Positions 8,742 through 25,830 of a stretch of 64,000 nucleotides of DNA are shown one piece after another. This stretch comes from a phage, in the sequence record PZ402305.1; one strand, 5' to 3'. Numbering within the stretch: position 1 is the first letter of the stretch; each line of letters starts with the position of its first letter. Made by a program: the position numbers and the translations under genes. Below the pieces are notes generated by a model. The model worked only from the letters and a program-made list of their open reading frames with translations. It was not told where the DNA came from and ran no database searches.

Positions 8742-11339
8742 TCAGTGACAACTGGCCCAGGAATTCCCCACATCATATCCAGCAGTAAGCTGAACATTAA
8801 GATTGTAAAATTCTCCAGCCTTAGTAACAGCTAAGGCAGCAAGTTCACCTGCCCGACTATAGGCTGTAAACCATCCACCTTTGGGAGATTCATGAATGTT
8901 AGCCCAAATTTGTCCCGTCTCTTTTTCCTTATTATGCTTCCATTCTTCAACTTTAGCAAGGCATTCTTTATCAATTTTCTTTTGTTCTTCAGGATCGTCT
9001 ACTTTCTTCCAACCTAATGATTCAGGTGAAAACCATTTAAATTCTACAAGGTTACGAGAAACTTCAAGCTGGGCTTCATCGTGATATGCAATCATTTGTT
9101 GCACGAAGTCTTTATTCTTCCAGTCATCTTTAAAGAAGTCAACACTTAGTCCTTCTTCTTCGATCATGTCGTCATAAATAACCATTGCACGTTTAGCACA
9201 GATAACCCCACCACTTTGGAACAGAGAGTTAAGAATCGCGTGAGCAGAACGAGTAGGAACCTTACGACCGTCAATACCCAAAACATATTGTTTACCAGTC
9301 TTAACCCAGAAATCGTTTAAACGTTCTTTAAGACGCGCCAATGGGAATGCAGCTTCCCAGAAAGCATCAAACACTAATTGACCTGTAAACTTATCGCTAC
9401 CAATTGTTTTAGCAACCTTGTCGGCTTGTGCACCATAGGTAATACCATACTTAACAGCTTTAGCAGGACTACGTTCAAATTTACGTCCAATAGTTTCAGT
9501 GATACGTTTTGCCATCATTGTGTGAACATCGTTAGGTTTCTCTAACAACAGAGCGTTACAATATTCGTGTGGCTCCGGCTCGTACCGCCAACAGTAGTGT
9601 GATTCAATTTTTGCTTCCAAAGAGTCGAAGTCGTAGCCGATCTGGAAGTATTTAGGAACCTCTACACCAAACAAGTTACGCATCTCCCATCCAAACAAAG
9701 ATGTGACACGAGGAATATTAGCTACAGATCTATGCTTCATACGAGAGGTTGCAGCATCACATGTAGCGGCTGGGGTAGGAATACGCCCATCCGCCCTTAC
9801 TGCGGCTAAGAAACCTTTATCGTATTCTTGATCTTCTTCATCTTCTTCCCAATCAGCACCGCCACCTAAAATAGAGTTCCTACGATGCTTATACGTTAAG
9901 TATTCTACAATCTGTGTAGCATAAGGAAACTTCTCACCCAAAGCTTGCAGGTTAGGACAAATTTCTTTTTCCTGACCTTTGGTAAAACATGGGTTAGTCA
10001 ATACTTTAAGACCGCGACCTTTACCTTTTGCTATACGCTCTTGAATCTTCCTTTCCAGGGTTTCCGGTGTGCACTCCAGATGATCACAACGATCCTGACA
10101 AAAATTAGAAGATAGAGTTTGCTCAACGTAAGCTCGAATACCTTTCTGAAGTTCTTCCTCGCTCTTTTTAATCTTGGTGCCAGATTTAAGAGTCAAGTCT
10201 TTATCTTTATATTCAGACGGTACCCAACCTAATCCTACAAGCCAGTTTTTAATATGGGTTGTATCGTTCAATGTTGCAGGAATGTTAGGATCACATAGAG
10301 GTTCATCTGCTGCAACTGGCAGTTTCCACTCTTTCCCCAACATAACTAACCACCAATCGCCATCCCTCTCTTCCAAATGACCATCATGTTTCTTAGCAAA
10401 ATTGATCATATGGTTAGTTGGCTCTAAGTTCTTTTTAATTTGCAACTTAGGTGGAATAAAAGCCTTAAGATAACCTTTTGTTGCTGGTTTAGGTGGCAAA
10501 ATAGGCTCAACGAGTAAACGAAGACGCTCCATTTCTGCATCCAAAAAAGCAAGGTTCTCTTCTGCTTGTTTCATGTTAAAAGCAAACCCACGGTGCTCCT
10601 GGCGTGTAATAATGTCTGCTACACGTTGTTCAAGTTCAAATGGACCTTCCCATTTATCATAATCACCCCATTCTTCCATAAGGTAATTATATACGCTCGT
10701 ATTGGCTTTGTTGTCATAGATACAGTAATAAAGCATATCAGCAGCAAAAGTCTTAAATCGATCTTCTTCTGGAATCTCTTTACGGAAATCTATTTTTACA
10801 TCACCACCTGCCTTTCGAGAAAGTGCTGCCAAACTATGTCCTGATTTGCCCTCAATCTTTCGATCTGGGTTTAACACTTTACTCAAAATCAAGGAGTCAA
10901 TAAGTTTTACCTTATTTTTGCCCCACGTATTATATTTAACACTGTAATCTAATCCATAAAACAGTTTTGTAGCCAACCAGTCGTAGTTGATACCGTTGTG
11001 AGCCACAGCCATTTCAACCAGATATTCAGGCTTGTCTTTAAAATAACCTTCATGATTAATAAAATCTGGGAAATCTTTTAGTTGAAAATGTGTGTAATCT
11101 TGCGCCACATACTCTTTAAGAACATATGTGTATTTACCATCTGACTCTTCATAAGGACGCCCATCAAAGATGTATTTAGGGCCATCGTGGAAAGCTACTA
11201 TTTCTCCTGTTTCATGGTTCTCTAAGACAATACAGTGCATTTGAAATGTGTCTTTGAGACGATAAGGACTAGCTAAATAATCAATAGTGTCATTATTCAA
11301 CAATCCGTTTGCTTCAATATCCCATGTAAACTTACTCAC
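8742..11339 (-). CDS. DNA polymerase, family A (Pol I / T7 gp5-like) with 3'-5' exonuclease domain
   Basis: Exo I motif DIEANGL near N-terminus; motif A DFDSLEAKIESH; motif B RSPAKAVKYGITYG (R..AK...YG..YG). Confidence 0.9.
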   Translation of the reverse strand: MSKFTWDIEANGLLNNDTIDYLASPYRLKDTFQMHCIVLENHETGEIVAFHDGPKYIFDGRPYEESDGKYTYVLKEYVAQDYTHFQLKDFPDFINHEGYFKDKPEYLVEMAVAHNGINYDWLATKLFYGLDYSVKYNTWGKNKVKLIDSLILSKVLNPDRKIEGKSGHSLAALSRKAGGDVKIDFRKEIPEEDRFKTFAADMLYYCIYDNKANTSVYNYLMEEWGDYDKWEGPFELEQRVADIITRQEHRGFAFNMKQAEENLAFLDAEMERLRLLVEPILPPKPATKGYLKAFIPPKLQIKKNLEPTNHMINFAKKHDGHLEERDGDWWLVMLGKEWKLPVAADEPLCDPNIPATLNDTTHIKNWLVGLGWVPSEYKDKDLTLKSGTKIKKSEEELQKGIRAYVEQTLSSNFCQDRCDHLECTPETLERKIQERIAKGKGRGLKVLTNPCFTKGQEKEICPNLQALGEKFPYATQIVEYLTYKHRRNSILGGGADWEEDEEDQEYDKGFLAAVRADGRIPTPAATCDAATSRMKHRSVANIPRVTSLFGWEMRNLFGVEVPKYFQIGYDFDSLEAKIESHYCWRYEPEPHEYCNALLLEKPNDVHTMMAKRITETIGRKFERSPAKAVKYGITYGAQADKVAKTIGSDKFTGQLVFDAFWEAAFPLARLKERLNDFWVKTGKQYVLGIDGRKVPTRSAHAILNSLFQSGGVICAKRAMVIYDDMIEEEGLSVDFFKDDWKNKDFVQQMIAYHDEAQLEVSRNLVEFKWFSPESLGWKKVDDPEEQKKIDKECLAKVEEWKHNKEKETGQIWANIHESPKGGWFTAYSRAGELAALAVTKAGEFYNLNVQLTAGYDVGNSWASCH

Positions 11340-12133
11340 TATTCCTCCTTTCTAATGTTCTCCAGAACCCACTGAAGTTCTTTTAAACTTAAACTTCTTA
11401 CTCCCGCAGTTTTACTAGCTTCAGCTTTAAGTAACGGGTAAGCCTCAATGATACGTGTTTTAAGATCAGAAGTCAAGGCTTTTAAAAAGTAGGTAGAGGC
11501 TTCAGATAAAGAATCCTCTTCTGATAACACTTTACCTGCACTTGCTCCCGCTCTCCTAACGGCTATGTCGTAGTCTTTACTGTTGCCTAATACGAATAGT
11601 CGATTTTCTCCTAAAACAACGGGAGAACGCTTCTCGTTGCGTTTAATCCATATCTGGAATACACAAGGAACATCCCAAGGTTCTCCATGAAGAATAAAAG
11701 ATCCTTTTGGACATTCTTCTTCGTAAAGAAGATGCATGTGGGGATTTAGTTTGTGTGCAAAAAAGATTTTTTGAAATGTGCGAGGCAAGATAAAACAAAT
11801 ACCACCTTCGTTATCCAGCATTTCAGCACAATGGTTAAAGAATTTAATGGCAAGACTAGCATTTTTTCCAAACGGAGGATTACCGACAAAAGCAGTTACA
11901 CTGCCAACAGACTCAACAGATTGAGCTAAAAAATCTGCCTCAATACAATCTTCAAACTTAGGGTCAATATCAAAAGAAGTTATGTTTTTAAAACAAGAAG
12001 AGAAAGCTCCTTCTCCCGCAGATGGTTCTACGTAGTTAGCTTCCTCTCCAAAAATTTCTTTGATCTTATCACATAAGAACCCCGCATAAGCGGGGTTAGT
12101 GTAATATTGATCAAGTGTGTTCAACTTGCTCAA
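11339..12133 (-). CDS. DNA N6-adenine (or N4-cytosine) methyltransferase
   Basis: Motif I EPSAGEGAF followed by motif IV VGNPPFGK (NPPF); 264 aa. Confidence 0.65.
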   Translation of the reverse strand: MSKLNTLDQYYTNPAYAGFLCDKIKEIFGEEANYVEPSAGEGAFSSCFKNITSFDIDPKFEDCIEADFLAQSVESVGSVTAFVGNPPFGKNASLAIKFFNHCAEMLDNEGGICFILPRTFQKIFFAHKLNPHMHLLYEEECPKGSFILHGEPWDVPCVFQIWIKRNEKRSPVVLGENRLFVLGNSKDYDIAVRRAGASAGKVLSEEDSLSEASTYFLKALTSDLKTRIIEAYPLLKAEASKTAGVRSLSLKELQWVLENIRKEE

Positions 12134-12142
12134 TAGTCCTCC

Positions 12143-12574
12143 TTAGTTGTTAGCGAACTCAATAGTGAGGTCAACTTTACCATCGTCAGAAATAACCATG
12201 TTTTTGGTATTTTTAAAGATGATATCTACTTTACCTTCACTTACACGACAGAATGCAACACCATCTGCAACTTTATCGATATAATATTTGTAAGAAAGAA
12301 TACCCACTTTACTACGACCAGCACCTTTTGTGAAAGAAGGGCTTACATCGAAACGGAAACCTTTAGAAGAAACAACACGGTAAGAACGTCCAGTTGGAAG
12401 ATGTTCAATAACAGAGACATTGTTCTCAACAACTTTTACAGCAAACTCTTCAGGATGATCCTCAACAATCATATGTGGGATGGCAAATGCCAACGCTTGT
12501 TTGTGTTTAATAACACCAGCACCCAGAGCACCAGCAGCTTTAACTTTTGCATTCAGATCGATTGTCATACGCAT
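12143..12574 (-). CDS. hypothetical protein
   Basis: 143 aa ORF with own sigma70-like promoter (rc TTGACA-17-TATACT at 12608-12636) and RBS gaggag. Confidence 0.55.
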   Translation of the reverse strand: MRMTIDLNAKVKAAGALGAGVIKHKQALAFAIPHMIVEDHPEEFAVKVVENNVSVIEHLPTGRSYRVVSSKGFRFDVSPSFTKGAGRSKVGILSYKYYIDKVADGVAFCRVSEGKVDIIFKNTKNMVISDDGKVDLTIEFANN

Positions 12575-12607
12575 TTTTACTTCTCCTCTTGTTTGGTTGA
12601 TGAGACA

Positions 12608-12636
12608 AGTATAAGTCCCTTCCGTAAAGTTGTCAA
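12608..12636 (-). promoter_or_regulatory. sigma70-like promoter for 12143..12574
   Basis: Minus strand reads TTGACA-17 nt-TATACT; preceded by cUUCGg hairpin terminator (12655-12666) after primase-helicase stop. Confidence 0.55.
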
Positions 12637-12666
12637 CAGGTATTTTTAATAAAAGGGCCGAAGCCC

Positions 12667-14445
12667 TTAATAGTTGCTATCCGTAGGCAAATTAGCAGGA
12701 TTGTTGAAATACTGCTCTTTGTCATGCAGAGTTGCAGTTCTAATGTCATAGTAAAACTGCCCTGCCGGACCAGTTTCCGAGAACTCACGGTTTTTTAGGA
12801 TAAAGCAATGAGTCGTATTGCGTTCTACAGGGTCTTCAGCGGCTTTATCTCGTTCCAAAGCCAAGGTAATACCAGCACCTTTAGCCAAGAAACTACTACC
12901 CATTGCATCGTCCTCTGTTAAGTGTTCATTGCCACCATTAGCCGACTTCTTAACGTGTGAGATGACGATAATGGTTATAGCATACTCTTTCATGATGCGC
13001 TTCAACCATGTTGCTAACTCTTCCTGGGCTTGAACATCCATACCAGAAAGCAAATCAGAATAAGGGTCGATAACAAGAATTGTTACTCCAAAATAGATGA
13101 TCATCTCCAAAACTTTTTCTTTGATAGACTCCACATCTGCTCCACGATCATCACACACATAAAAACGTGGTGATCCATCTTCTCTTTCGTAAAAATCTAG
13201 GATTTTTTCTTTATTCTCTTCCAAGATTTGAAATTTCTCTTCCGGTGTTTTCCTGTGTAGAGGAATATGCAGGAACGAGGACAACAGGTTACGAGAATAT
13301 TTCTTATAAGTTGCTTCCAAGGACAGAATACCTAGGGTATGTTCTGGGTGTGCAACAATAATATGTTTGGTGATCTCATTCACCATCAAAGTTTTACCGA
13401 TACTGGTCTTTGCCAGGATGACTGTAATCTCTTCCTCTACTAAACCACCACCCAGCATATTTGCAGCAACACGCATAAAAGGAGGCAAGGTAATCATCTT
13501 GGATTCCAAGCATTCTAATGCAGCTTCATACAAGACATTAGAAGCATAAACACCTGCTGGGGTGTATAGACGAGCACTCCAAAAAGCTTTTACGAAATCT
13601 TTTGCACGACCTTCTTCCAGATACTGATTGGCATCCTTAAGATCCATCTGCATACGGTAGACTTTGTTACGAGGCAGCACCTTAACAATATTTTCAAATG
13701 CCTCATTACCTGCTTTGTCATTATCCATGCAAACAATAATCTTCTTAAATTTTTCAAAGAAAGGATATTGTGCCTGAACTTGTTTATACATACTGGTTTC
13801 ACCAGTTGTGCCACTAACTACTGCTGGAAGTTCATATTTGTTGTCCAAGTTTTCAGACAGCATTTGATAAGCTGCCAGAGCATCGTGTTCACCACCTGTA
13901 ATTACCACAGTATGAGAACGGTCTGCAAAACGAATTTGTCCAAAAAGATCTACATCTTTACCTACTTGACCAATAGGTTTGCTGAAATCTTTAGGATGAA
14001 TACGACGCTTAAAACCAACCAACTCTTTACCGATAGTAGTTGGATATAAACAACTTTCTACTACCATCTGATCCCCTTCCTGACGGTATTCATAACGAAC
14101 ACCATAGAAAGATGAAACTTTTTCTTTAATGCCTCGATAACCACGTGGGTTGGTTGATGTTTCTTGAACAATTTTACGATGAATCTGTTTATTAAATTCC
14201 GAACCCACAATCTCCTCCTCTTCTTCTAAAACTTCACCATTTTCTCGTAACCATTCTACGCTAGGAATAGTGTATTCACACGCAAAGCACTTAGCACCCT
14301 TATGCTCTCCATTAGAATCTAATCCATAAACCATCAGGTTATTACGAGAGCGATCCTTGCCATTTTTCATGCAGCGCGGACAACCTGTATGCCCTTCCTT
14401 GCTAAGATCAACATCAAATCCATATTTAGTTATAATGTGCGACAC
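12667..14445 (-). CDS. bifunctional DNA primase/helicase (T7 gp4-like)
   Basis: N-terminal CxxC...CxxC zinc-binding segment (CPRCMKNG...CFACEY); C-terminal Walker A AKTSIGKT and Walker B-like VLVIDPYSDL. Confidence 0.75.
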   Translation of the reverse strand: MSHIITKYGFDVDLSKEGHTGCPRCMKNGKDRSRNNLMVYGLDSNGEHKGAKCFACEYTIPSVEWLRENGEVLEEEEEIVGSEFNKQIHRKIVQETSTNPRGYRGIKEKVSSFYGVRYEYRQEGDQMVVESCLYPTTIGKELVGFKRRIHPKDFSKPIGQVGKDVDLFGQIRFADRSHTVVITGGEHDALAAYQMLSENLDNKYELPAVVSGTTGETSMYKQVQAQYPFFEKFKKIIVCMDNDKAGNEAFENIVKVLPRNKVYRMQMDLKDANQYLEEGRAKDFVKAFWSARLYTPAGVYASNVLYEAALECLESKMITLPPFMRVAANMLGGGLVEEEITVILAKTSIGKTLMVNEITKHIIVAHPEHTLGILSLEATYKKYSRNLLSSFLHIPLHRKTPEEKFQILEENKEKILDFYEREDGSPRFYVCDDRGADVESIKEKVLEMIIYFGVTILVIDPYSDLLSGMDVQAQEELATWLKRIMKEYAITIIVISHVKKSANGGNEHLTEDDAMGSSFLAKGAGITLALERDKAAEDPVERNTTHCFILKNREFSETGPAGQFYYDIRTATLHDKEQYFNNPANLPTDSNY

Positions 14446-14457
14446 TTTGTTCTCCTG

Positions 14458-14736
14458 TTAAAATGGTTCGTTAGTCTCCATCATATATTCTGCTTCTAGT
14501 TCTTCCATGTGCTTTCTAAATTGGAAAGCAATTTCTGCTACAGTTACATTTAAATCTTTTTCAAAAACTTCTGTAGAGCCTTCATAAAAACGAATACCGT
14601 CAATTAAAAGCCCTCCGTGGTAATCCCAATCACTTTCACGAGAAAGCGGGTTAGGCTCTTCATAATAGTAATCCACCTCCACGACTAAGGCTTTCCCGTT
14701 ACGAGTGGTGTATTCAAAATCAAAAGTGTTAATCAT
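14458..14736 (-). CDS. hypothetical protein
   Basis: 92 aa ORF tightly packed between primase-helicase and glycosyltransferase. Confidence 0.45.
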   Translation of the reverse strand: MINTFDFEYTTRNGKALVVEVDYYYEEPNPLSRESDWDYHGGLLIDGIRFYEGSTEVFEKDLNVTVAEIAFQFRKHMEELEAEYMMETNEPF

Positions 14737-15680
14737 TATAGCTCCTCAAATAAAAGTCTACGACGCTCATTCAACACATCAATGTGATAATGAGTCCTGA
14801 CATACTTAGCTAATGCTAATCCTTTCTCCATGCAAACATCGGGAGCACTTAATAAGTATTCCGTAATATCTTTCCACTCGGAAGGTGTTTCAGCAAAGAA
14901 TAACAAATCTTTAAACTCTTGTGTATGATAATTCTCACGAGGAGAACAGATCAAAGGTAAACCCTTAGCACCTGCCTCAAGAATTTTAAGATTGCTTTTT
15001 GCATTATTAAACACGTTATCAAGCAATGGCGCAAGACTGATTTGATGACCATCGTAAGATTCCATGTAGTTGGCATATGGTCTTACACCTTCATAAACAC
15101 AAGTTGGTGCTACATTTTCTCTGATCACAGACCATTCACGACTACTTAAAACTTCAGAATCCCTACGAAAACCACATATTGTAAGATCTTTACCAAAATC
15201 GGGCAAGATAGCCAAATCTTGTTTATGTGTTTCACTTCCAGCCCAGACTAATGGAGTTTTGGAGTAGCGATCACGGGTCAACACAAATTGACCTTCATCG
15301 TAAGGAAGACCATTAGGGATTATGTGCACATTATCATTGTATTGTGAAAGTTCAACTTGCAAAGCAGGTGTCGTAGTTGTAACAAGATCGCTGTGCTCTA
15401 AAAACCATTTTAAATGTTCACGAATACCTGATTCAAAAATACCTTCTAACATGTGTCCTTTTGGAATAACTAAAGAGTCATCCAAATCCATAACCATTTT
15501 AAAGCCTAGGTTTTTAAGGGCTAAAAAGCCCTCTTTACCTTTTGTTGGCACTCCGTTAAAAACGAAAACGTTGTGTTTAGGTTGTGAAGAGAACTGCCTT
15601 GAGTAAGGCAGCACTACCCTATGGAAATCGCAGACACTATAATTGATTCCGTTACGATTGTCAAGAATTATTTGTCCCAT
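14736..15680 (-). CDS. glycosyltransferase (GT-B fold, GT4-like), paralog 1
   Basis: C-terminal KILEAGAKGLPLICS resembles GT1/GT4 nucleotide-sugar binding motif; paralogous to 15688..16635 (shared CD(F/Y)HR(V/I)V(L/I)P and KSNLKILEAGAKG). Confidence 0.5.
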   Translation of the reverse strand: MGQIILDNRNGINYSVCDFHRVVLPYSRQFSSQPKHNVFVFNGVPTKGKEGFLALKNLGFKMVMDLDDSLVIPKGHMLEGIFESGIREHLKWFLEHSDLVTTTTPALQVELSQYNDNVHIIPNGLPYDEGQFVLTRDRYSKTPLVWAGSETHKQDLAILPDFGKDLTICGFRRDSEVLSSREWSVIRENVAPTCVYEGVRPYANYMESYDGHQISLAPLLDNVFNNAKSNLKILEAGAKGLPLICSPRENYHTQEFKDLLFFAETPSEWKDITEYLLSAPDVCMEKGLALAKYVRTHYHIDVLNERRRLLFEEL

Positions 15681-15687
15681 ACTTCAC

Positions 15688-16635
15688 CTACAAACTTTCA
15701 ATAACCTGGCGTCGCAACTCGTTTGCATCTGCCAGATTATAATGTGTTCGAACATGTTCAGCCAAGAACAAGCCACGATCTTCCCGATAGTTTGGATTGC
15801 GAAGAAGCTTAACAATTTCGTAATGCCATTCTGCTTTATTCTCTGCGTAAGCAACAGCGCGAGCATCTACAGGGTTAAAATAAGGTAATACCTTAGAACA
15901 AACAATTGGAATACCTTTTGCTCCAGCTTCCAGGATTTTGAGATTACTTTTACAATTATTAAAATCATTATCTACCAAAGGAGCTATAGCAATAGCATGA
16001 CTTTCGTAAACACTCATGTAATTATCTAAATCTTTTACAGCGGCTTTATATTTGGCATTTGGTAAATTTCTGCGAATCTTAATCCACTCTTGTCCCGTGA
16101 TGCTTTGTGATGCTTCATATCCCGCAATAGTAAGAAGTTCATCATCGAAAGTATTAGAGACTAGTCGTAAGTCTGGTTCGTGACTAGCACCGCCAGCCCA
16201 TACAACAGGGGTACCGGATGAACGATCATTTGACAAAGTGAATTGTCCGCTATCAAAAGGAAGTGCATTTCGGATCACAACAACATTCCTATTTAAGTGA
16301 CGGATCTTATATGCCAAATATTCCGTAGTCACAATAACCACATCAGCAAGCTTAACCATAGCTACAATAGCATGAGTGTTTGACTCGTATAGACTTGCTA
16401 AATAATGTTCTGGATTAAGTTGGTAAAAATCATCTAAGTCTACAACAACCTTAACACCTTGACGTTTCAAAGATAAAACGTATTCTGCACCTTTAGAGTG
16501 GATACGGTTAAACACAACAACATCTTTCTTAGGTTGAATATTATTGTTGTTAAATGGTATAACAATACGATGATAGTCACAACCGCTGTGAGGTTTTGCA
16601 TCAATTTTTAGTTTAGACCATTTTTTATTTGACAT
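15688..16635 (-). CDS. glycosyltransferase (GT-B fold, GT4-like), paralog 2
   Basis: KILEAGAKGIPIVCS motif; tandem paralog of 14736..15680. Confidence 0.5.
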   Translation of the reverse strand: MSNKKWSKLKIDAKPHSGCDYHRIVIPFNNNNIQPKKDVVVFNRIHSKGAEYVLSLKRQGVKVVVDLDDFYQLNPEHYLASLYESNTHAIVAMVKLADVVIVTTEYLAYKIRHLNRNVVVIRNALPFDSGQFTLSNDRSSGTPVVWAGGASHEPDLRLVSNTFDDELLTIAGYEASQSITGQEWIKIRRNLPNAKYKAAVKDLDNYMSVYESHAIAIAPLVDNDFNNCKSNLKILEAGAKGIPIVCSKVLPYFNPVDARAVAYAENKAEWHYEIVKLLRNPNYREDRGLFLAEHVRTHYNLADANELRRQVIESL

Positions 16636-17308
16636 GTGCTAGTGCCTCCTCATAGGAAATTCGGATTTTCCCATTTTTAATATCCTCTAAAGATGCTTTA
16701 TATTCTTCCCAGTTAATCCCAATAGCAGCCTCTTTCTCTTCTTTTGTCAGGTTAGCAAAAGGCATAGGATTGTTTCCAAAAACATCGTCTGGGTGGATAT
16801 AAGCCATGATACGAAGTGGACAAGGTGTTGCCTGAATACCATGATTCAAACCAGCAGCTTGCAAACGGTGTCCCCATTCAGCATCTTCAAAACCATAACC
16901 GTGAGTGTAAGGACGGAAATAACCCATCTTCTCAACAACGGCACGAGAATACATTGCAAATTGACACATTGCAAGTTCCCAGAGAATAACTTCTCCTTTG
17001 CTTCCAACAACTTTATCTTTGAAATACTCCGGCATACCAAAGAAATCCCATCCTCCAGAGACAGCTTGATCTACAAAGTATGTTTCCCATCCCTCCATGA
17101 CTGGGTAGCAATCATCGTCAAAAATAAACCAATAATCATAACCTTCTTCATAAAACTGGTGCATAAGTTCATTCCTGGCATAAGCTACACCTTTACGATC
17201 TGGATCGTTGAATACTCGAAAATCTGCACGTGGATCTGTTACAAGGTAGTCTTTAAGTGGACGGACACCTACAGTGATAACACCCACTCCGATTTTAATA
17301 TTTTCCAT
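16625..17308 (-). CDS. glycosyltransferase, GT-A fold (DxD)
   Basis: FIFDDDCYP DxD-type motif and YGFEDAEW segment typical of GT2-like enzymes. Confidence 0.45.
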   Translation of the reverse strand: MENIKIGVGVITVGVRPLKDYLVTDPRADFRVFNDPDRKGVAYARNELMHQFYEEGYDYWFIFDDDCYPVMEGWETYFVDQAVSGGWDFFGMPEYFKDKVVGSKGEVILWELAMCQFAMYSRAVVEKMGYFRPYTHGYGFEDAEWGHRLQAAGLNHGIQATPCPLRIMAYIHPDDVFGNNPMPFANLTKEEKEAAIGINWEEYKASLEDIKNGKIRISYEEALAHVK

Positions 17309-17316
17309 TTTCTCTC

Positions 17317-17880
17317 CTAAATAGTTTTACTGTGATCATGACAGTGTAATAAATGATGTATAGACCGTTGAGGATTTGTTTGACCTAATCTGTAAATGTG
17401 AAACAGATACATTCCCCGCATCAATCCTAACCTCTTTCCTTTTTCATGTAAAGTGCGAGAGAAAATTAAGTCGAATTGGATAGATTTTTCTTCGAAAGGA
17501 ATTTCATTCCACAATGATTTTCTAAAAAGCAAAAAGAAACCTGCCAGAGGTGTTCCGAAAGGAACTTCTTCAACACTTACTTTATGATATTCTCTTGCAA
17601 TCTTAGCATATTCTATATGGTTTAGAATATCGGGATCATCGTTAATTTGGTTAGAGAAAAGCTGATAACCACTACCTAACCTGTTACAAGTTGCACCTAT
17701 TACATCAAAAGGCGGGTTTGACATAACAAGCTCTTCAAGCATAGAGGGTTGATCAGGTAGGAGGAACATTGTATCGGTATCTCTTAAACACACCCAACTA
17801 TCATCTGGAAGAACGGCAATGGCTTCATTGATAGCCTTGCCGATATTTCCTGTCAGATAGGGAGTAATATAATAAATCAT
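17317..17880 (-). CDS. putative GT-A-like glycosyltransferase
   Basis: N-terminal YITPY...NEAIAVLPDDSWVCLRDTDTMF resembles GT-A Rossmann start with DxD (DTD). Confidence 0.35.
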   Translation of the reverse strand: MIYYITPYLTGNIGKAINEAIAVLPDDSWVCLRDTDTMFLLPDQPSMLEELVMSNPPFDVIGATCNRLGSGYQLFSNQINDDPDILNHIEYAKIAREYHKVSVEEVPFGTPLAGFFLLFRKSLWNEIPFEEKSIQFDLIFSRTLHEKGKRLGLMRGMYLFHIYRLGQTNPQRSIHHLLHCHDHSKTI

Positions 17881-19184: not shown

Positions 19185-19202
19185 AAAATCATTTGTTAAT
19201 TA

Positions 19203-19805
19203 TTATGGACATTCATACCATTCTTTTTTACCACCGAAGGCCATCACCACATCACAAATATCCAGACCAGCTTTGCCTACACCATATGCTTTCAGCTTCC
19301 ATTCCCCATCTTCACGAACCAAGGAAGCCACGTGGCAGATTGTGTTGCCAGCTACTTCAGGAGCCAGGAAGTCAAAATCCAGAATTTCCACATTGCGCTC
19401 GGAGTCGAAGATTTTAAGCATACCTTCAGAAGCATGACCAAAACGTTTCAGACCTGTATCATCATCAATGGTCAGAACAAAGGCAATCTCTTGTGCATCA
19501 GGAGAGATTTTAGCCAGAGTAATATCAATCTGCTCCATGCTGCCAGTTCCATCACGAACATCGTCACCAGCGAAGGTAGAACGTTCAGGATCAAACTTGT
19601 TAGCATAGCAAACCAGATGACGTGCAGACAGCATTTCAGGATTGCCAGCGGCATTGTGACGACAAACCAGTGCACTTACATCCAGATCCAGTTTAGAATC
19701 AGATTTCCAAGAGAATTCCAGGCGCAGTTCTTTCAGAGCCGGAGCAACCTTCTTCAGGGAAATTTTTTCGCTAGAGCCTTTTTTCAGGGAAATTTTATCA
19801 GTCAT
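19203..19805 (-). CDS. terD: TerD-family protein
   Basis: N-terminal ISLKK...ISLKK start and C-terminal EDGEWKLKAYGVGKAGLDICDVVMAFGG resemble the TerD domain (compare E. coli TerD ...NGEWKFRAVGQGYAGGL...); ~200 aa. Confidence 0.8.
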   Translation of the reverse strand: MTDKISLKKGSSEKISLKKVAPALKELRLEFSWKSDSKLDLDVSALVCRHNAAGNPEMLSARHLVCYANKFDPERSTFAGDDVRDGTGSMEQIDITLAKISPDAQEIAFVLTIDDDTGLKRFGHASEGMLKIFDSERNVEILDFDFLAPEVAGNTICHVASLVREDGEWKLKAYGVGKAGLDICDVVMAFGGKKEWYECP

Positions 19806-19820
19806 CTTTTGTCTCCTCTA

Positions 19821-20090
19821 TTATTTAAGTGTAATACCAGTTACAGTCAATTCTACTTCCAAAAGCTTAGATGTGTTTTGGATTGATACTAATTGTGCAT
19901 GATGGTTTAGTTCTACAGCAGAATAATCATTTTCCCCATCATCTACTTTTAAATAAACAATAATTTCACTAAGGTCTAAACCATTTTCGTCAAATGCATT
20001 TTCATAGACGAAAGTATCTCCTACATCCAAATCTTTAATAGTAAGGCATCGTTTATTTACTTTTTGCTCATCAATTTCGAAGTTTAACAC
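19821..20090 (-). CDS. hypothetical protein, paralog of 21112..21390
   Basis: Shares DLDVG(D/A)TF...GLD...V(E/D)L(T/E)VT(G/N)ITLK with the ORF upstream of the vWA gene. Confidence 0.5.
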   Translation of the reverse strand: MLNFEIDEQKVNKRCLTIKDLDVGDTFVYENAFDENGLDLSEIIVYLKVDDGENDYSAVELNHHAQLVSIQNTSKLLEVELTVTGITLK

Positions 20091-20319
20091 TTCTTCCTCC
20101 TAATGTTATCTCCGGTTTGTATATACGAAGAATTATAGCATTTTCATTTTCTTTGTCAACCCATTCTTCATAATCAGGCCATACATGAATCTCTACTCTA
20201 CTTACAATATCTTCCATTCGCACAGTCCCAATGAAATACTCTTTGAGACTGCGCATAATGAAAGCTTCTCTCTCACGCCAATAATTTTCTATGACTTGAG
20301 AGGCAAGCTCGTCGATCAT
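20071..20319 (-). CDS. hypothetical protein
   Basis: 82 aa ORF, overlaps neighbours by few nt. Confidence 0.45.
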   Translation of the reverse strand: MIDELASQVIENYWREREAFIMRSLKEYFIGTVRMEDIVSRVEIHVWPDYEEWVDKENENAIILRIYKPEITLGGRSVKLRN

Positions 20320-21110
20320 TTTTTAGCACCTACTTTAACAACCCACTCTCCGAACTCTTCAGATAAGAGTTTGTCATAAAGCTCTGAATCTGTCAAGTCT
20401 AAATCTTTAATGCCAATAAAACCAACATTATCATAAGCATTTGCCAGTTCTTTCAGGAAGCCAAACTTCTCATTACCAACGCCAACCATGAACCAATAAA
20501 TAGGTTTATTCTTATTCTCTTCGATAAGACGACGAACAGCACTAGGATCACCATTCTCACCATCAGTCTGGAAGAATACAACACCAGGGGTAACGTCAGA
20601 ACCTGGTTCAGATACAGCTACAACTTTTTCACGCTCTACAGACACTGTTTCAGTTTTACCAAGCAGACGATTAAAGAAGCCTTTCTTTGGAGCCTCCTCT
20701 TGTACCACTTGTTTAGTGGTAATATATTTAGTAACAGTGCCAAAATACTCATCGTAGATATCCGCCATTACAGGGGCGTAATTTGTTCCACCTCCGATAC
20801 GAACATTACGCATACATTTACCAACATAGTCATCGTAAACATCTGCTGTTGCTGGAGTAAGCTCTTGGGAACTCGTATTGAAGGCCCACATATCAATTTG
20901 TTGATTATCGTCGAACAGCATACCAAAAGGAAGCAGTTTACCTACAAAATCACTCACTACCCCACTAGAATATAGACCATGCATACTACCAGAAATATCT
21001 AGAGCACATGCTACACGAAGAACAATCTTACCTTCATTCAGGTTCTTATTCTTTTTCAGAGAGAAAGCAAGGTTTTCTTGACGTTTTTTCAGGCTGATTT
21101 TCTCGGACAT
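20316..21110 (-). CDS. vWA-domain protein with TerD-like N-terminus (TerY/TerF-like)
   Basis: N-terminal EKISLKK like TerD start; MIDAS motif ALDISGSMHG (DxSxS); sits in Ter-like module. Confidence 0.65.
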   Translation of the reverse strand: MSEKISLKKRQENLAFSLKKNKNLNEGKIVLRVACALDISGSMHGLYSSGVVSDFVGKLLPFGMLFDDNQQIDMWAFNTSSQELTPATADVYDDYVGKCMRNVRIGGGTNYAPVMADIYDEYFGTVTKYITTKQVVQEEAPKKGFFNRLLGKTETVSVEREKVVAVSEPGSDVTPGVVFFQTDGENGDPSAVRRLIEENKNKPIYWFMVGVGNEKFGFLKELANAYDNVGFIGIKDLDLTDSELYDKLLSEEFGEWVVKVGAKK

Positions 21111-21111
21111 A

Positions 21112-21390
21112 TTATTTCTCCTTCTTAAGTGTAATATTGGTAACTTCTAAATCTACTTCCACCATATTTGTATCTGGTGGGATGCAATGAGTATAGCCTC
21201 GTTGTGCTAGTGATCCATTAATACAGATCGCACTGTTTGTGGAATTTTTAATGAACACCAAGTTACGGTAGGTATCCAACCCTGCGTCTTCATAGGCATC
21301 ATAATACATGAATGTGGCCCCTACGTCAAGATCTTCGAAAGCAATAGGTAAATCCTGACTTTTTTCTTCTTGAATATTGAATCTAAACAC
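21112..21390 (-). CDS. hypothetical protein, paralog of 19821..20090
   Basis: ORF track 21112..21456 overlaps upstream gene; GTG at 21388-21390 with AGGAGG RBS gives length matching paralog. Confidence 0.4.
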   Translation of the reverse strand: MFRFNIQEEKSQDLPIAFEDLDVGATFMYYDAYEDAGLDTYRNLVFIKNSTNSAICINGSLAQRGYTHCIPPDTNMVEVDLEVTNITLKKEK

Positions 21391-21946
21391 GCATACCTCC
21401 TCTACCAATTTTGAAGCCCAAATCGTAAGCTTCCTTAGTGATCTTTTGTAACTCACTTATAGGAAGTGTTACAAGAGGATCATCTTCTTCAATTTCCATC
21501 TTGTCATCTTCTGTTTCAATGAGAGTATTATGCACTTTGTGATAAGGGTTGTCAACACGTTTAAACTTATTCTTTTCTGTGCTGAAAAAACAATCTGGAT
21601 CTTCTTCACCATCACCCCAACCTTGGTTAGGATCTCCGTCAGATTGTTCTGTAGGGATTTCACCTGTAAAGTACTCTTCCAGCACCATAGCGATACCGTC
21701 CCTTGGATTTGAGGAATGCATCAAATCACAAACCTTACTCCAATCCATAGCCCATTCGAACCGTTCACGAACGCCGTTTTCATCCTCCTTTCCAGAGAAA
21801 ACACAACCATAACTATCATAGTTGCCATACATCTCTTCAATAACAACACCGTCCTTCAAAAGAAAGAGATAACAAGGCGATCCGTCGAAAGAAGTAGAAA
21901 GGGCAGCTTTGCCCGATTCTTTGCACAAAAAGCTAAAACAACCCAT
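21383..21946 (-). CDS. hypothetical acidic protein
   Basis: 187 aa ORF. Confidence 0.5.
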   Translation of the reverse strand: MGCFSFLCKESGKAALSTSFDGSPCYLFLLKDGVVIEEMYGNYDSYGCVFSGKEDENGVRERFEWAMDWSKVCDLMHSSNPRDGIAMVLEEYFTGEIPTEQSDGDPNQGWGDGEEDPDCFFSTEKNKFKRVDNPYHKVHNTLIETEDDKMEIEEDDPLVTLPISELQKITKEAYDLGFKIGRGGMRV

Positions 21947-22149
21947 TACAAACCCTCCTTCAGATTATCAAGAGCTACAGTGGTTTCACAAAAGTCTCCA
22001 TAAGTTTTATGATGTTCCAGAAAAGCTTCGGGTCCACCCCAGTCATTATCTTGTGTATTCCAGCCATCAATAAAAGCATCTTCAATGATTGTGATCAGTT
22101 CTTGTCGGGTTAACTGGATAATATTAGGATCGTTATCGTAGTTAAACAT
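21946..22149 (-). CDS. hypothetical protein
   Basis: 67 aa ORF. Confidence 0.4.
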   Translation of the reverse strand: MFNYDNDPNIIQLTRQELITIIEDAFIDGWNTQDNDWGGPEAFLEHHKTYGDFCETTVALDNLKEGL

Positions 22150-22314
22150 CCTCTTCCTCCTCTAAAATATGGAACCCGTAATTACAATAGTCCTGAAAGG
22201 TTTCGTGCGCAAGATCTTCTATATCCTCTTGAGACATATCATCTTCAATTTCGATATCCACAACCTCATTGCATCCACACCAAGCAGTTTCAATATTCAC
22301 TCGTAATATTTTCA

Positions 22315-22509
22315 TTACTCCTCCTCATTGAAGTCAATATCTGCAAGGAGTTCGAATTTACGGAAGTTACGACAACCTTCATAAATATAACAATCACGAC
22401 AAACTGCTAGAACACTTGGGGGATATATGCCTCCCATCGGTGCGAATCGTTTTTCGTCATCATAACGGACACCAATGTCTTCATCAATTATATAGATACG
22501 GATTCTCAT
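22315..22509 (-). CDS. hypothetical protein
   Basis: 64 aa ORF, stop overlaps TelA-like start. Confidence 0.4.
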   Translation of the reverse strand: MRIRIYIIDEDIGVRYDDEKRFAPMGGIYPPSVLAVCRDCYIYEGCRNFRKFELLADIDFNEEE

Positions 22510-23618
22510 TTACCAAGCCCTCGTTTCACAGCAGCTACCATCCCGTCTTCCAGAGATTGAACTTCATTAATATAATCAACACGAGCAGCACGGGCTTCCG
22601 TATTGATGCGGTTAGTTTCTTCCAGCATCTTAACCAAGTTTTCCTGATCGTGACGCAGAGTTTCAATATCCAACACTTGACGGTTAGCCAGTGCTGCTGC
22701 TTCGATCTGATTCTGTGTGGCAAGATCGCTACCCAGTTTAATTGCCAGGTTAAATTCATCAAGAACGTTATTCTGCGTCTCTGCTGCTTTCATTTGACGT
22801 AAGCTCTCGATATACATTGAGAAGTTAGCAGAGTAAGCAGGAATAACATTATTTACTATGTTACGCGCAGATCGCATTAAGCTTGCAGAAACTTTTTGCA
22901 TACCTTGTACACGCGGTCCCATTTGGACACACAGTAGGCGCAATGCTTTTAAATCTGCAATACGAATCTCCAGAAGATCCAAAGTATCTCGGATCACTTG
23001 TCGCTGTTCTACTGCATCTTCTGGAAGAGCAGCCAAAGCTTGTTCTTCTTTTTCATAGGTTGCTGTTAGAAGCTGCATATCTCGGTTCAAACTTGCAGCA
23101 TATTGTCCAATAGCTTGATGTAGCTTTTCAAGATATACCAAGGAATCTTCTTCTTTGCGAATATCCATTTGAAGGTTCTTTACCAACTCTTCAATACGGT
23201 TATTAACATTATCAAACTCCCCAAACAGGTCTTCTTTCATACCCATAACTTTTTTAATGAGTTTAGTAATACCCTTGCTTTGTTTAATAGAGTTTGGATC
23301 AAGTTGTTTTGCCTGTTTAATCAAAGCTGTGAGTCGTTCACTCATCTGATCGCCTTGATTACTACGTTGATGTTTTAATACCTCGGCATTCAAGGAACGC
23401 AAGGTTGTTCCTGCCTCTGCCCCAATCTCTTCGATCTCTTGTCGGGTCATAGAAGGCAAAACTGGAACTTCTTGCGGTGCCGCTGGTGCATAAACAGGAC
23501 TGGCATCTAACACGCTTGGAGCGAATACAGATTTACTTGCATCTGTTGTTGCAGCAAATACGCTCATTTCAGGCTTCTTCTGACCACCAGTAGCTGCTTT
23601 TAAAAATGGACTTGTCAT
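22506..23618 (-). CDS. telA: TelA-like (toxic anion resistance) protein
   Basis: 370 aa, long predicted coiled-coil/helical protein of TelA-like size in neighbourhood of terC and terD; assignment by context and composition, no diagnostic motif verified. Confidence 0.45.
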   Translation of the reverse strand: MTSPFLKAATGGQKKPEMSVFAATTDASKSVFAPSVLDASPVYAPAAPQEVPVLPSMTRQEIEEIGAEAGTTLRSLNAEVLKHQRSNQGDQMSERLTALIKQAKQLDPNSIKQSKGITKLIKKVMGMKEDLFGEFDNVNNRIEELVKNLQMDIRKEEDSLVYLEKLHQAIGQYAASLNRDMQLLTATYEKEEQALAALPEDAVEQRQVIRDTLDLLEIRIADLKALRLLCVQMGPRVQGMQKVSASLMRSARNIVNNVIPAYSANFSMYIESLRQMKAAETQNNVLDEFNLAIKLGSDLATQNQIEAAALANRQVLDIETLRHDQENLVKMLEETNRINTEARAARVDYINEVQSLEDGMVAAVKRGLGK

Positions 23619-24205: not shown

Positions 24206-24208
24206 AAC

Positions 24209-24802: not shown

Positions 24803-24816
24803 TGTTTTTCTCCTTA

Positions 24817-25788: not shown

Positions 25789-25830
25789 AAGTCTCTCCTA
25801 TAAAATAGCCTCCCGAAGGAGGCTCATCTA

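What the first reader, a model, noticed from the sequence alone, without database searches (positions are those of the whole stretch)
11339..17880. Four glycosyltransferases and a DNA methyltransferase inside the replisome block
Two paralogous GT-B-type and two GT-A-type (DxD) glycosyltransferases sit between the primase-helicase and downstream genes, next to an NPPF-motif DNA methyltransferase and the family A polymerase. Phage glycosyltransferases placed with replication genes classically modify DNA bases, as with T4 glucosylation of hydroxymethylcytosine. Here this would predict a multi-sugar DNA hypermodification plus adenine methylation as anti-restriction. The alternative is glycosylation of virion proteins or host surface polysaccharide.
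Basis: inference. Interest (0 to 1): 0.65.

Follow-up and report, generated by a model that had tools for sequence, protein, structure and literature searches.

The report
Mobile phage glycosyltransferase cassette, target unproven
Four sugar-transferring enzymes next to the replication genes of a phAPEC8-like E. coli phage are real, but they form a mobile gene cassette that other phages carry among their head and tail genes, and they more likely glycosylate phage particle proteins than DNA.

Summary
The window is a Phapecoctavirus (99.5% identical to Escherichia phage tuntematon). On the minus strand lie a 187-aa probable GT-A-like enzyme, a 227-aa GT-A, two GT-B paralogs (41% identical), a 92-aa ORF, primase-helicase, a 143-aa ORF, an NPPF methyltransferase-like protein and PolA. 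RefSeq already annotates the four as glycosyltransferases, and DNA rhamnosylation was already suggested in print (Olsen 2020).

The DNA-hypermodification reading is disfavoured:
- No ThyA-type hydroxymethylase or hydroxylase exists in any frame of the genome.
- No known DNA-glycosyltransferase family is matched above threshold.
- DNA of congeners is cut by HincII.
- phi92-like phages with the orthologous cassette are "exceptionally susceptible" to restriction systems.

The new result is that small GT, GT-A and GT-B, often with an RmlB-like dehydratase, form a mobile cassette. In temperate Pseudomonas, Enterobacter, Paraburkholderia and Chitinophaga phages it sits just upstream of terminase or inside the head/tail module. 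In Burkholderiaceae the GT-B pairs with an invasin-like adhesin.

My best explanation (about 0.45) is glycosylation of virion or other proteins with a 6-deoxyhexose-containing glycan. The methyltransferase is an independent gene. The folds do not discriminate between acceptors, so only experiments can settle the target.

The parts
17317..17880 (-). First gene of the cassette: a 187-aa probable GT-A-like nucleotide-sugar transferase with a 'RDTDT' DxD motif.
   Evidence: phrog_14179 at E 8.5e-113 and phrog_26101. D34 and D36 are invariant in alignment A3. Pfam gives only sub-threshold GT2-type hits among relatives. It has 41-45% identical homologs at the head of the cassette in prophages L008, L011 and L020 and in contig L005.
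16625..17308 (-). A 227-aa GT-A (GT2-like) glycosyltransferase with a DDD motif at residues 64-66.
15688..16635 (-). A 315-aa GT-B (GT4-like) glycosyltransferase, the ancestral GT-B of the cassette.
14736..15680 (-). A 314-aa GT-B paralog, a lineage-specific duplicate.
   Evidence: It is 41% identical to the 315-aa paralog. A second copy occurs only in Stephanstirmvirinae-like loci (L006, L014, L036-L047). Prophages and L005/L048 have a single copy.
14458..14736 (-). A 92-aa acidic ORF (pI 4.2) between the cassette and the primase-helicase. It is probably co-transcribed but is not part of the mobile cassette.
   Evidence: phrog_4240. It overlaps the GT-B stop by 1 nt. It is conserved next to the primase-helicase in Stephanstirm-like loci only. 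The phi92 annotation reports a relative in PVP-SE1.
11339..12133 (-). A 264-aa methyltransferase-like protein with a YYTNP ... EPSAGEGAF ... NPPF motif order. It is an independent gene, not part of the cassette.
   Evidence: The sequence is. phrog_5172 and phrog_799 'DNA methyltransferase' at E 1e-10. No Pfam or NCBIfam hit. It is 54% identical in rV5-like phages that lack the GTs. It is absent between helicase and PolA in phi92, L005, L006 and L037-L046.

Best explanation
The four genes are a mobile phage glycosylation cassette in the order small GT-A-like enzyme, GT-A, GT-B, with the GT-B duplicated in this lineage. The enzymes are soluble and cytoplasmic.

Proposed mechanism:
- They use nucleotide sugars, at least one of them a dTDP-6-deoxyhexose such as dTDP-L-rhamnose. 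The phage's own RmlABCD genes lie outside the window. In other lineages an RmlB-like dehydratase sits inside the cassette.
- They build a short O-linked oligosaccharide step by step on proteins, most likely the phage's own virion proteins (capsid, decoration, tail tube or fibres).
- One enzyme would prime the protein acceptor and the others would extend the glycan. The duplicated GT-B would add an extra or alternative sugar.
- The likely benefit is a glycan coat that changes the surface properties of the particle, such as stability, stickiness to host glycans or debris, or recognition. This parallels capsid and tail-tube glycosylation in mycobacteriophages.

What is shown: the folds and motifs, the cassette structure, its mobility and contexts, the absence of a pathway that makes an acceptor base, and published restriction sensitivity. 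What is inferred: the protein acceptor, the donor sugars, the order of the steps and the benefit.

The NPPF methyltransferase-like gene is a separate, probably DNA-directed, enzyme.
For: 1. Cassette and mobility.
- The same gene order and families recur at 38-47% identity in unrelated temperate phages.

2. Contexts in other phages.
- Pseudomonas alliivorans prophage L011: the cassette directly follows the major capsid gene (41-nt gap) and precedes the tail terminator and tail tube genes.
- Paraburkholderia L020: the order is capsid, portal, collagen-like protein, cassette, then a tail tube protein with Ig domains.
- Pseudomonas prophages L007, L012, L015, L016, L049-L051 and L059: the cassette is immediately upstream of TerS, TerL, portal and capsid.
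- Enterobacter L008 and L054: the order is endolysin, cassette, HNH, TerS, TerL, capsid.
- Chitinophaga L027: the GT-B abuts the portal gene.
- The cassette is co-oriented with its neighbours and tightly packed, and in most loci its GC content matches the flanks.

3. Non-phage relatives.
- A conserved triad of invasin/intimin-like adhesin, a 571-aa protein and the GT-B occurs in Burkholderia and Trinickia. This suggests a protein acceptor.

4. Sugar supply.
- An RmlB-like NDP-hexose 4,6-dehydratase lies inside the cassette in L005, L008 and L048.
- A genuine RmlB (431 bits against a 365-bit cut-off) plus RmlA, RmlC and RmlD are in the tuntematon genome.

5. Precedent.
- Che8, Corndog and Myrna glycosylate capsid and tail proteins with phage glycosyltransferases (Freeman 2023, as cited in PMC12363180 and PMC11256854).

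6. Against the DNA alternative.
- No ThyA homolog.
- DNA of congeners is cut by HincII.
- phi92-like phages are sensitive to restriction-modification systems.

7. The enzymes have no transmembrane segments.
Against: - No glycoprotein has been shown in any Stephanstirmvirinae virion.
- In this lineage the cassette is packed in one unit with the primase-helicase. It would therefore be expressed with replication genes rather than late genes.
- RB69, DLP3 and RL38J1 place multi-GT-B DNA-glycosylation clusters in just such replication modules. Their GTs hit the same PDB entries as this GT-B (6kih, BshA, PimA, 7qsg) (PMC13326640). Fold and position therefore cannot exclude DNA.
- Late expression next to terminase would also suit a DNA modifier acting before packaging.
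- Similarity to the mycobacteriophage GTs is only at the generic GT2 level: Che8 gp108 N-terminal domain E 4e-4, and no match to gp109 or gp110.
- Insertions in late operons can also be lysogenic-conversion morons.
Confidence: 0.45

Rival explanations
1. DNA hypermodification, the first reader's leading idea, published earlier by Olsen et al. 2020. The GTs would transfer rhamnose and other sugars onto a modified base in phage DNA, protecting it from nucleases.
For: - The cassette is co-packed with primase-helicase and PolA.
- RB69 places its arabinosyl-5hoC cluster between helicase/UvsX and the DNA polymerase.
- There are weak local hits of the GT-A to TAGT and to phrog_842, the beta-glucosyl-HMC alpha-glucosyltransferase family.
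- The phage encodes dTDP-rhamnose synthesis in its nucleotide-metabolism region.
Against: - No ThyA-family enzyme in six frames of the window or the whole related genome (best E 2.6). The only thymidylate synthase is ThyX. No dNMP kinase homolog. No TET/JBP enzyme is annotated or was found in the tested candidates.
- The TAGT and phrog_842 hits cover only about 39 residues around the DxD motif and are below threshold.
- Phapecoctavirus and Justusliebigvirus DNA is cut by HincII.
- phi92-like phages with the orthologous cassette are exceptionally sensitive to type I, II and III restriction-modification systems.
- The cassette also occurs in small temperate phages that replicate with host machinery and show no base-modification genes nearby.
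Confidence: 0.15
2. Modification of a host glycoconjugate. The soluble GTs would act on undecaprenyl-linked or core-linked intermediates of LPS, ECA, colanic acid or capsule. This would alter the infected or lysogenic cell surface, giving superinfection exclusion, less loss of progeny on debris, or seroconversion in lysogens.
For: - The GT-B's best structural matches include enzymes acting on lipid-linked or LPS acceptors: PglA, WlaC, PimA, WaaG, WbnH and TarM.
- The GT-A resembles polysaccharide GT2 enzymes: GlfT2, chondroitin polymerase, TarP, TarS and RmlT.
- These phages use ECA/NGR glycan and the LPS core as receptors.
- Temperate phages often carry surface-modifying morons in late regions.
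- Luteibacter L025 and Edaphocola L031 have chromosomal, non-phage contexts with a methyltransferase, GT90 and MFS genes.
Against: - There is no flippase, Gtr-type or other membrane component, and no transmembrane segments.
- The cassette is co-oriented, tightly packed and GC-matched inside late structural operons, rather than a self-contained moron.
- Complete surface remodelling during a short lytic cycle is judged futile by the BASEL authors.
- The strictly lytic Stephanstirmvirinae keep the cassette almost universally.
Confidence: 0.2
3. Glycosylation of a small molecule or a host protein as a counter-defence or takeover function, for example inactivating a signalling nucleotide, a cofactor or a host enzyme.
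For: - Structural neighbours of the GT-B include small-molecule GTs: BshA, MshA, tetrahydrobiopterin glucosyltransferase, SenB and sucrose-phosphate synthase.
- The cassette would be expressed early or middle in this phage.
Against: - Three or four different GTs acting in series, plus a dedicated deoxy-sugar supply, point to an oligosaccharide product rather than a single blocking sugar.
- Placement among structural genes in many phages is not explained.
- No PADLOC or anti-defence evidence was sought or found.
Confidence: 0.1

Closest known systems
Actinobacteriophage virion glycosylation (Che8 gp108-110, Corndog gp38, Myrna; Freeman et al. 2023)
   Same: - Phage-encoded soluble GT-A-type glycosyltransferases in a small cluster.
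- In relatives of this cassette the genes are linked to capsid and tail genes.
- The proposed product is an O-linked glycan on capsid or tail proteins.
   Different: - The GT families are different. Only generic GT2 similarity to the Che8 gp108 N-terminal domain (23% identity, E 4e-4) and none to gp109 or gp110.
- This cassette has GT-B enzymes and a deoxy-sugar supply, and no fused O-methyltransferase.
- The hosts are Gram-negative.
- No glycoprotein has been demonstrated.
Glycosylated hydroxypyrimidine DNA hypermodification (T4 glucosyl-5hmC; RB69/DLP3 arabinosyl-5hoC; RL38J1 hexosyl-5hoC; PMC13326640)
   Same: - Several GT-B enzymes with the same structural neighbours.
- Phage-encoded nucleotide-sugar synthesis.
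- Location beside helicase and polymerase genes in a large lytic myovirus.
   Different: - No ThyA-family 5-hydroxymethylase or hydroxylase and no dNMP kinase.
- DNA of congeners is restrictable.
- The sugar pathway is dTDP-rhamnose rather than UDP-glucose or UDP-arabinose.
- The cassette is shared with small temperate phages that lack any base-modification genes.
TET/JBP-associated glycosyltransferases (TAGT, PF20691)
   Same: GT-A fold. There is a local match of 37 residues around the DxD motif.
   Different: - The score is 19.5 bits against a 27.5-bit gathering threshold.
- No TET/JBP dioxygenase was found.
- The protein annotated 'Dcm' in the related genome has no Pfam methyltransferase hit.
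Adhesin-glycosyltransferase pairs of Gram-negative bacteria (AIDA-I/Aah, TibA/TibC, HMW1/HMW1C; from general knowledge)
   Same: In Burkholderia and Trinickia the GT-B homolog is in a conserved triad with an invasin/intimin-like outer-membrane adhesin. This fits cytoplasmic protein O-glycosylation.
   Different: - There is no sequence relationship to the heptosyltransferase or HMW1C families.
- Glycosylation of the adhesin is not shown.

Membership tests
Hydroxy(methyl)pyrimidine DNA glycosylation systems (T4 / RB69 / DLP3 / RL38J1 type) | ThyA-family dNMP hydroxymethylase or 5-hydroxylase that makes the acceptor base | tested here: not met
   phmmer --max with RB69 gp48 against all six-frame ORFs of at least 50 aa in the window and the whole tuntematon genome gave a best E of 2.6. 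The only thymidylate synthase is ThyX.
Hydroxy(methyl)pyrimidine DNA glycosylation systems (T4 / RB69 / DLP3 / RL38J1 type) | Accessory dNMP kinase and dCTPase that replace the canonical nucleotide pool | tested here: inconclusive
   No homolog of the RB69 gp45 kinase was found (best E 0.16). A MazG-like pyrophosphohydrolase and an NT5C-like nucleotidase exist elsewhere in the genome, but their specificity is unknown.
Hydroxy(methyl)pyrimidine DNA glycosylation systems (T4 / RB69 / DLP3 / RL38J1 type) | Virion DNA broadly resistant to restriction enzymes | tested here: not met
   From the literature only. HincII cuts all Phapecoctavirus and Justusliebigvirus isolates, and only T-even-like phages resisted (PMC10269720). 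phi92-like phages with the orthologous cassette are exceptionally susceptible to restriction-modification systems (PMC8594841; orthology). Not measured for this exact isolate.
Hydroxy(methyl)pyrimidine DNA glycosylation systems (T4 / RB69 / DLP3 / RL38J1 type) | Glycosylated nucleoside detectable in virion DNA | not testable with these tools
   Needs nucleoside LC-MS/MS.
TET-associated glycosyltransferase systems (TAGT, PF20691) | GT scoring above the Pfam TAGT gathering threshold, together with a TET/JBP dioxygenase and a C5-methyltransferase | tested here: not met
   TAGT scores 19.5 bits against a 27.5-bit cut-off, over 37 residues only. No dioxygenase is annotated. The protein annotated 'Dcm' and its neighbours have no Pfam hit. 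Not every protein of the genome was scanned.
GT-A fold nucleotide-sugar glycosyltransferases (GT2-like) | Rossmann-like GT-A fold with a DxD metal and nucleotide-sugar binding motif | tested here: met
GT-B fold glycosyltransferases (GT4-like) | Two Rossmann domains with a C-terminal nucleotide-sugar binding signature | tested here: met
Actinobacteriophage virion glycosylation (Che8-type) | Homology to the GTs shown to be required (Che8 gp110, Corndog gp38) | tested here: not met
   hhalign of the GT-A family against Che8 gp109 and gp110 gave probability below 1%. There is only generic GT2 similarity to the gp108 N-terminal domain, E 4e-4.
Actinobacteriophage virion glycosylation (Che8-type) | Glycans covalently attached to capsid or tail subunits | not testable with these tools
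   Needs virion glycoprotein staining and mass spectrometry.
Gtr-type or membrane-bound O-antigen seroconversion systems | GtrA flippase, GtrB bactoprenol GT and a membrane GT-C, or other integral-membrane components | tested here: not met
   No hydrophobic 19-residue window typical of a transmembrane helix was found. The maximum Kyte-Doolittle value is 1.65, in a buried core element of the GT-B model. No such genes lie in the flanks.
Gamma-class amino (N6-A/N4-C) DNA methyltransferases | SAM-binding motif I followed by the catalytic (D/N/S)PP(Y/F) motif IV, plus membership of a curated MTase family | tested here: inconclusive
   EPSAGEGAF (residues 36-44) and NPPF (85-88) are present in that order, after YYTNP. 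phrog_799 'DNA methyltransferase' matches at E 1e-10. There is no Pfam or NCBIfam hit, and the best PDB hit is a weak match to the putative methyltransferase Ta1320 (E 0.25). Target base and sequence are unknown.

The most novel reading that the evidence does not exclude
The cassette glycosylates phage DNA after replication, on an acceptor that does not come from a ThyA-type hydroxymethyl- or hydroxy-pyrimidine. The acceptor could be a canonical base or a base made by an unrecognised enzyme. The modification would be sparse or sequence-specific enough to leave the DNA cuttable by HincII, EcoRI, EcoRV and others. That would be a new chemistry of DNA glycosylation, shared by large lytic and small temperate phages.
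Probability: 0.07. Interest if true: 0.9.

Novelty: new variant of a known kind. Interest (0 to 1): 0.45.

Why it matters
Virion glycosylation by phage-encoded enzymes has been shown so far only for actinobacteriophages, where it alters antibody recognition.

If this cassette glycosylates virion proteins, it would be the first such system in phages of Gram-negative bacteria. It would be widespread: in Phapecoctavirus and Justusliebigvirus, which are frequent candidates for E. coli phage therapy, and in many Pseudomonas, Enterobacter and Burkholderiales prophages.

That would bear on three things:
- the immunogenicity and pharmacokinetics of therapeutic phages;
- particle stability and host-glycan interactions;
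- the reading of phage genomes, since 'glycosyltransferase next to the polymerase' is now often taken as a sign of DNA modification.

The analysis also gives a concrete negative. These phages very probably do not carry T4- or RB69-style hypermodified DNA.

Tried and rejected
- **Sequence and profile searches of the PDB.** Searches with all three GT families and the methyltransferase gave no meaningful hits.
- **Isoelectric point as a proxy for DNA binding.** Rejected, because the RB69 DNA arabinosyltransferase is as acidic as these GTs.
- **Specific homology to the Che8 capsid-glycosylation GTs.** Not found. The roughly 360 mycobacteriophage tblastn hits reflect generic GT2 similarity to the gp108-type N-terminal domain.
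- **TET/JBP-TAGT pathway.** Not supported.
- **Promoter and terminator scan.** Counts are not above shuffled expectation. Only one convincing sigma-70-like site appears, in the gap 12575-12666.
- **Papers not held.** The Freeman 2023 and Schwarzer 2012 (phi92) papers could not be read. Statements about them are second-hand or from memory.
- **Phage JEP7.** A paper reporting no glycoprotein staining in ten phages, including E. coli myovirus JEP7, was found. The genus of JEP7 could not be established, so it was not used.
- **NCBIfam.** It gave nothing for the GTs or the methyltransferase.

Full report
**Identity of the window.** The 6.5-kb region is 99.5% identical over its full length to Escherichia phage tuntematon. 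It is 99.3% identical to phAPEC8, the type phage of Phapecoctavirus in the Stephanstirmvirinae. The ORF layout of the window is collinear with the tuntematon record. RefSeq already labels the four genes 'glycosyltransferase' and the 264-aa gene 'putative DNA N6-adenine methyltransferase'.

**Check of the observation.** All genes lie on the minus strand. In order of transcription they are:
- 17317-17880: 187 aa
- 16625-17308: 227 aa
- 15688-16635: 315 aa
- 14736-15680: 314 aa
- 14458-14736: 92 aa
- 12667-14445: primase-helicase (Toprim plus DnaB_C)
- 12143-12574: 143 aa
- 11339-12133: 264 aa
- 8742-11339: family A polymerase

The gaps between the four GT genes, the 92-aa ORF and the primase-helicase range from -11 to +12 nt. 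The only real intergenic gap (92 nt, 12575-12666) holds the best sigma-70-like match in the region.

The evidence for each enzyme is as follows:
- **The 227-aa protein.** It models confidently (pLDDT 89) as a GT-A/GT2-like fold with an invariant DDD motif.
- **The 187-aa protein.** It has an invariant D-x-D and a PHROG 'glycosyltransferase' assignment. Its only Pfam signals are sub-threshold GT2 hits among relatives, so it is a probable GT.
- **The 264-aa protein.** It carries YYTNP, EPSAGEGAF and NPPF in the order of gamma-class amino-methyltransferases, and it matches phrog_799. It matches no Pfam or NCBIfam model.

The methyltransferase gene is not adjacent to the GTs. One of the 'GT-A' calls is only probable.

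**What was already known.** Olsen et al. 2020 noted that phapecoctaviruses and phi92-like phages encode a complete dTDP-rhamnose pathway in their DNA-metabolism region. They suggested rhamnosylation of hydroxymethylated nucleotides (PMC7552041). Maffei et al. 2021 reported that Vequintavirinae and their relatives, including the phi92-like Bas60-62, are 'exceptionally susceptible' to restriction-modification systems 'despite a putative dTDP glycosylation machinery' (PMC8594841).

**Tests of the DNA-hypermodification reading.** All characterised glycosylated-pyrimidine systems start from a ThyA-family enzyme that makes 5hm-dCMP, 5hm-dUMP or 5ho-dCMP. This includes the recently described arabinosyl- and hexosyl-5-hydroxycytosine systems of RB69, DLP3 and RL38J1 (PMC13326640). 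The results were:
- **No ThyA homolog.** I searched all six-frame ORFs of the window and of the complete tuntematon genome with the RB69 ThyA homolog, with heuristics off. The best E-value was 2.6, and the associated kinase was also absent.
- **Only ThyX.** The genome's only thymidylate synthase is ThyX. The proteins annotated 'DNA methyltransferase/Dcm' elsewhere in the genome have no Pfam methyltransferase hit, and no dioxygenase is annotated.
- **No known DNA-GT family.** The only pointer is a match of 37-39 residues around the DxD motif of the GT-A to TAGT (19.5 bits against a 27.5-bit cut-off) and to phrog_842.
- **Restrictable DNA in vitro.** In one APEC phage collection, HincII cut the DNA of every Phapecoctavirus and Justusliebigvirus isolate. 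The three T-even-like phages were resistant (PMC10269720).
- **Restriction-sensitive relatives in vivo.** The BASEL phi92-like phages EmilieFrey and PaulScherrer carry orthologs of all four GTs at 66-77% identity. They belong to the restriction-sensitive group.

Complete replacement of a base by a glycosylated derivative is thus effectively excluded for this phage group. A sparse or sequence-specific modification is not excluded.

**The cassette is mobile and usually sits among morphogenesis genes.** This is the main new finding. Homolog searches gave these family sizes:
- GT-A family: 17 clusters
- 187-aa family: 32 clusters
- GT-B family: more than 200 clusters, with many 'bacterial' members at 40-50% identity

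Those bacterial members are in prophages. Across 8 loci fetched by exact protein look-up, 20 loci from representative bacterial genomes and 27 IMG/VR loci, the GT-A and GT-B genes are almost always adjacent. The 187-aa gene often precedes them, in the same order as in the window. Two kinds of context appear.

1. *Stephanstirmvirinae-like large myoviruses.* The cassette sits directly upstream of a small ORF, the primase-helicase and PolA. Thirteen of the 27 IMG/VR loci, plus L005, L006 and L014, are of this kind. A diverged lineage (L048) is similar but has a single GT-B.
2. *Small temperate phages.* The cassette lies in or beside the virion module:
   - P. alliivorans L011: TerL, portal, MuF, major capsid protein, then the three GTs (41-nt gap after the capsid gene), then tail terminator and tail tube.
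   - Paraburkholderia L020: capsid-protease, portal, a collagen-repeat protein, the three GTs, then an Ig-domain tail tube protein.
   - Pseudomonas L007, L012, L015, L016, L049-L051 and L059: holin or late genes, GT-A, GT-B, then metallopeptidase, TerS, TerL, portal, MuF and capsid.
   - Enterobacter L008 and the related L054: endolysin, small GT, dehydratase, GT-A, GT-B, HNH, TerS, TerL, capsid, portal.
   - Chitinophaga L027: the GT-B abuts the SPP1-type portal gene.
   - L023: the GT-A/GT-B pair heads a cluster of tail genes only (sheath, tail lysozyme) next to chromosomal pepN.

None of the flanks searched contains a ThyA homolog or any other recognisable base-modification gene. The cassette's GC content matches its flanks in most loci, and it is co-oriented and tightly packed with the late genes. 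This argues against a recently acquired, self-transcribed moron.

Outside phages, Burkholderia dolosa and two Trinickia genomes share a conserved triad of invasin/intimin-like adhesin, a 571-aa protein and the GT-B. This resembles adhesin-glycosyltransferase pairs.

In every foreign locus the 315-aa paralog is the better match. The 314-aa gene is therefore a duplication specific to the Stephanstirmvirinae lineage.

**Sugar supply.** In L005, L008/L009 and L048 an SDR enzyme sits inside the cassette. It is best matched by dTDP-glucose 4,6-dehydratase, at 171-180 bits. That is below the equivalog cut-off, so it is an RmlB-like NDP-hexose 4,6-dehydratase. The Phapecoctavirus genome instead carries a genuine RmlB (431 bits against a 365-bit cut-off) with RmlA, RmlC and RmlD. 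These lie about 70 kb away, outside the window. One congener, ESCO37, lacks rmlA and rmlB but keeps the GTs, so the host enzymes can probably substitute. A 6-deoxyhexose donor for at least one step is therefore a consistent inference.

**The methyltransferase-like gene.** It is 54% identical in about 160 rV5-like Vequintavirus genomes, which have no GT cassette. It is missing between helicase and PolA in phi92, L005, L006 and L037-L046, which do have the cassette. It is an independent gene. The rV5-like phages that carry it are also restriction-sensitive, so it gives no broad protection. Its target base and motif are unknown.

**Most likely mechanism.** The data best fit a soluble, multi-step glycosylation module. 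It would assemble a short glycan containing a 6-deoxyhexose on a protein acceptor, most plausibly the phage's own structural proteins. The functional analogy is capsid and tail-tube glycosylation in mycobacteriophages Che8, Corndog and Myrna (Freeman 2023, cited in PMC12363180 and PMC11256854). The cassette is not a member of that system, because the GT families are unrelated beyond the generic GT2 level.

I give this reading about 0.45. The rivals are:
- host envelope glycan modification, about 0.2;
- DNA glycosylation, about 0.15;
- a small-molecule or host-protein target, about 0.1.

The main weakness is that no glycoprotein has been demonstrated. In this lineage the cassette also travels with replication genes rather than late genes.

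**Novelty and interest.** The genes, their annotation and the DNA-glycosylation hypothesis are already public. What appears to be new is the recognition of a conserved three-family GT cassette, with a deoxy-sugar dehydratase, that moves between lytic myoviruses and temperate phages of Proteobacteria and Bacteroidota and is usually embedded in morphogenesis modules. If virion glycosylation is confirmed, it would extend a phenomenon known only from actinobacteriophages to common E. coli therapeutic phages. I rate it a new variant of a known kind, of moderate interest (0.45).

Noticed in passing
GenBank records MG065639, MG065645, MG065646, MG065650, MG065652, MG065661, MG065684, MG065689 (hits to window 11339-17880): Records labelled 'Campylobacter phage' (host C. 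jejuni) are 99-100% identical at protein level to E. coli Phapecoctavirus, Justusliebigvirus or Vequintavirus genes. Likewise, 'Acinetobacter phage ABPW7' (98.8% nucleotide identity over the region) and 'Pseudomonas phage PsgM04F' (80% protein identity to the 187-aa GT) carry close copies of these genes. These look like mislabelled hosts or contaminating coliphages.
   Followed up: no
window 8742-11339; L006 14739-18121; L039, L046; phi92 L034 11496-14810: The PolA gene is intact in the window (865 aa). In relatives it is interrupted or enlarged: an HNH-containing insert splits it in L006, tblastn matches are split in L039 and L046, and it is 1104 aa in phi92. This suggests mobile homing-endonuclease or intein insertions in the polymerase gene.
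   Followed up: no
window about 19200-26800 (minus strand); L006 1201-8331: A Ter-like stress-response gene set (TerD, TelA, vWA-TerF-like, TerC, Band_7) lies just downstream of the cassette in the window and upstream of it in a diverged relative. Its role in a lytic phage is unexplained.
   Followed up: no
L010 3025-8440; L019, L021, L022: Burkholderia dolosa and two Trinickia genomes share a conserved triad of an invasin/intimin-like outer-membrane protein, an uncharacterised 571-aa protein (no Pfam or NCBIfam hit) and a GT-B homolog. It is a candidate adhesin glycosylation system.
   Followed up: partly
L020 6392-8137: A 581-aa collagen-triple-helix repeat protein (Scl-like) is encoded between the portal gene and the GT cassette of a Paraburkholderia prophage. 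Collagen-like proteins are frequent glycosylation targets, so it is a candidate acceptor.
   Followed up: no
L023 9330-17453: In Pseudomonas sp. LP_7_YM the GT-A/GT-B pair lies next to chromosomal pepN, at the head of a cluster with tail sheath (DUF3383) and tail-lysozyme genes and no head genes in view. It may be a tailocin with its own glycosyltransferases.
   Followed up: no
window 12575-12666: The only sizeable intergenic gap in the block (92 nt, between the primase-helicase and the 143-aa ORF) contains a near-consensus sigma-70-like promoter on the minus strand (TTGACA-17-TATACT, 12636-12608). The phAPEC8 record annotates a promoter in this region.
   Followed up: no
Related genome NC_052660 (tuntematon), record 115302-116300: The ThyX homolog is long (332 aa). 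Only its first 174 residues match the Thy1 domain, and only weakly (E 5e-8). The C-terminal half is unassigned.
   Followed up: no
Escherichia phage ESCO37 (OM386659): One Phapecoctavirus lacks rmlA and rmlB but retains the whole GT cassette at 98.8% identity. The phage-encoded first steps of dTDP-rhamnose synthesis are therefore dispensable, at least on hosts that have their own.
   Followed up: partly
LR597654 (phAPEC8_ev052) annotation of the ortholog of window 11339-12133: One record annotates the methyltransferase-like protein as 'DarB-like anti-restriction'. The protein also matches positions 732-859 of a 1259-residue PHROG profile (phrog_9133). Its methyltransferase domain may therefore be related to those of large DarB-type proteins.
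   Followed up: no
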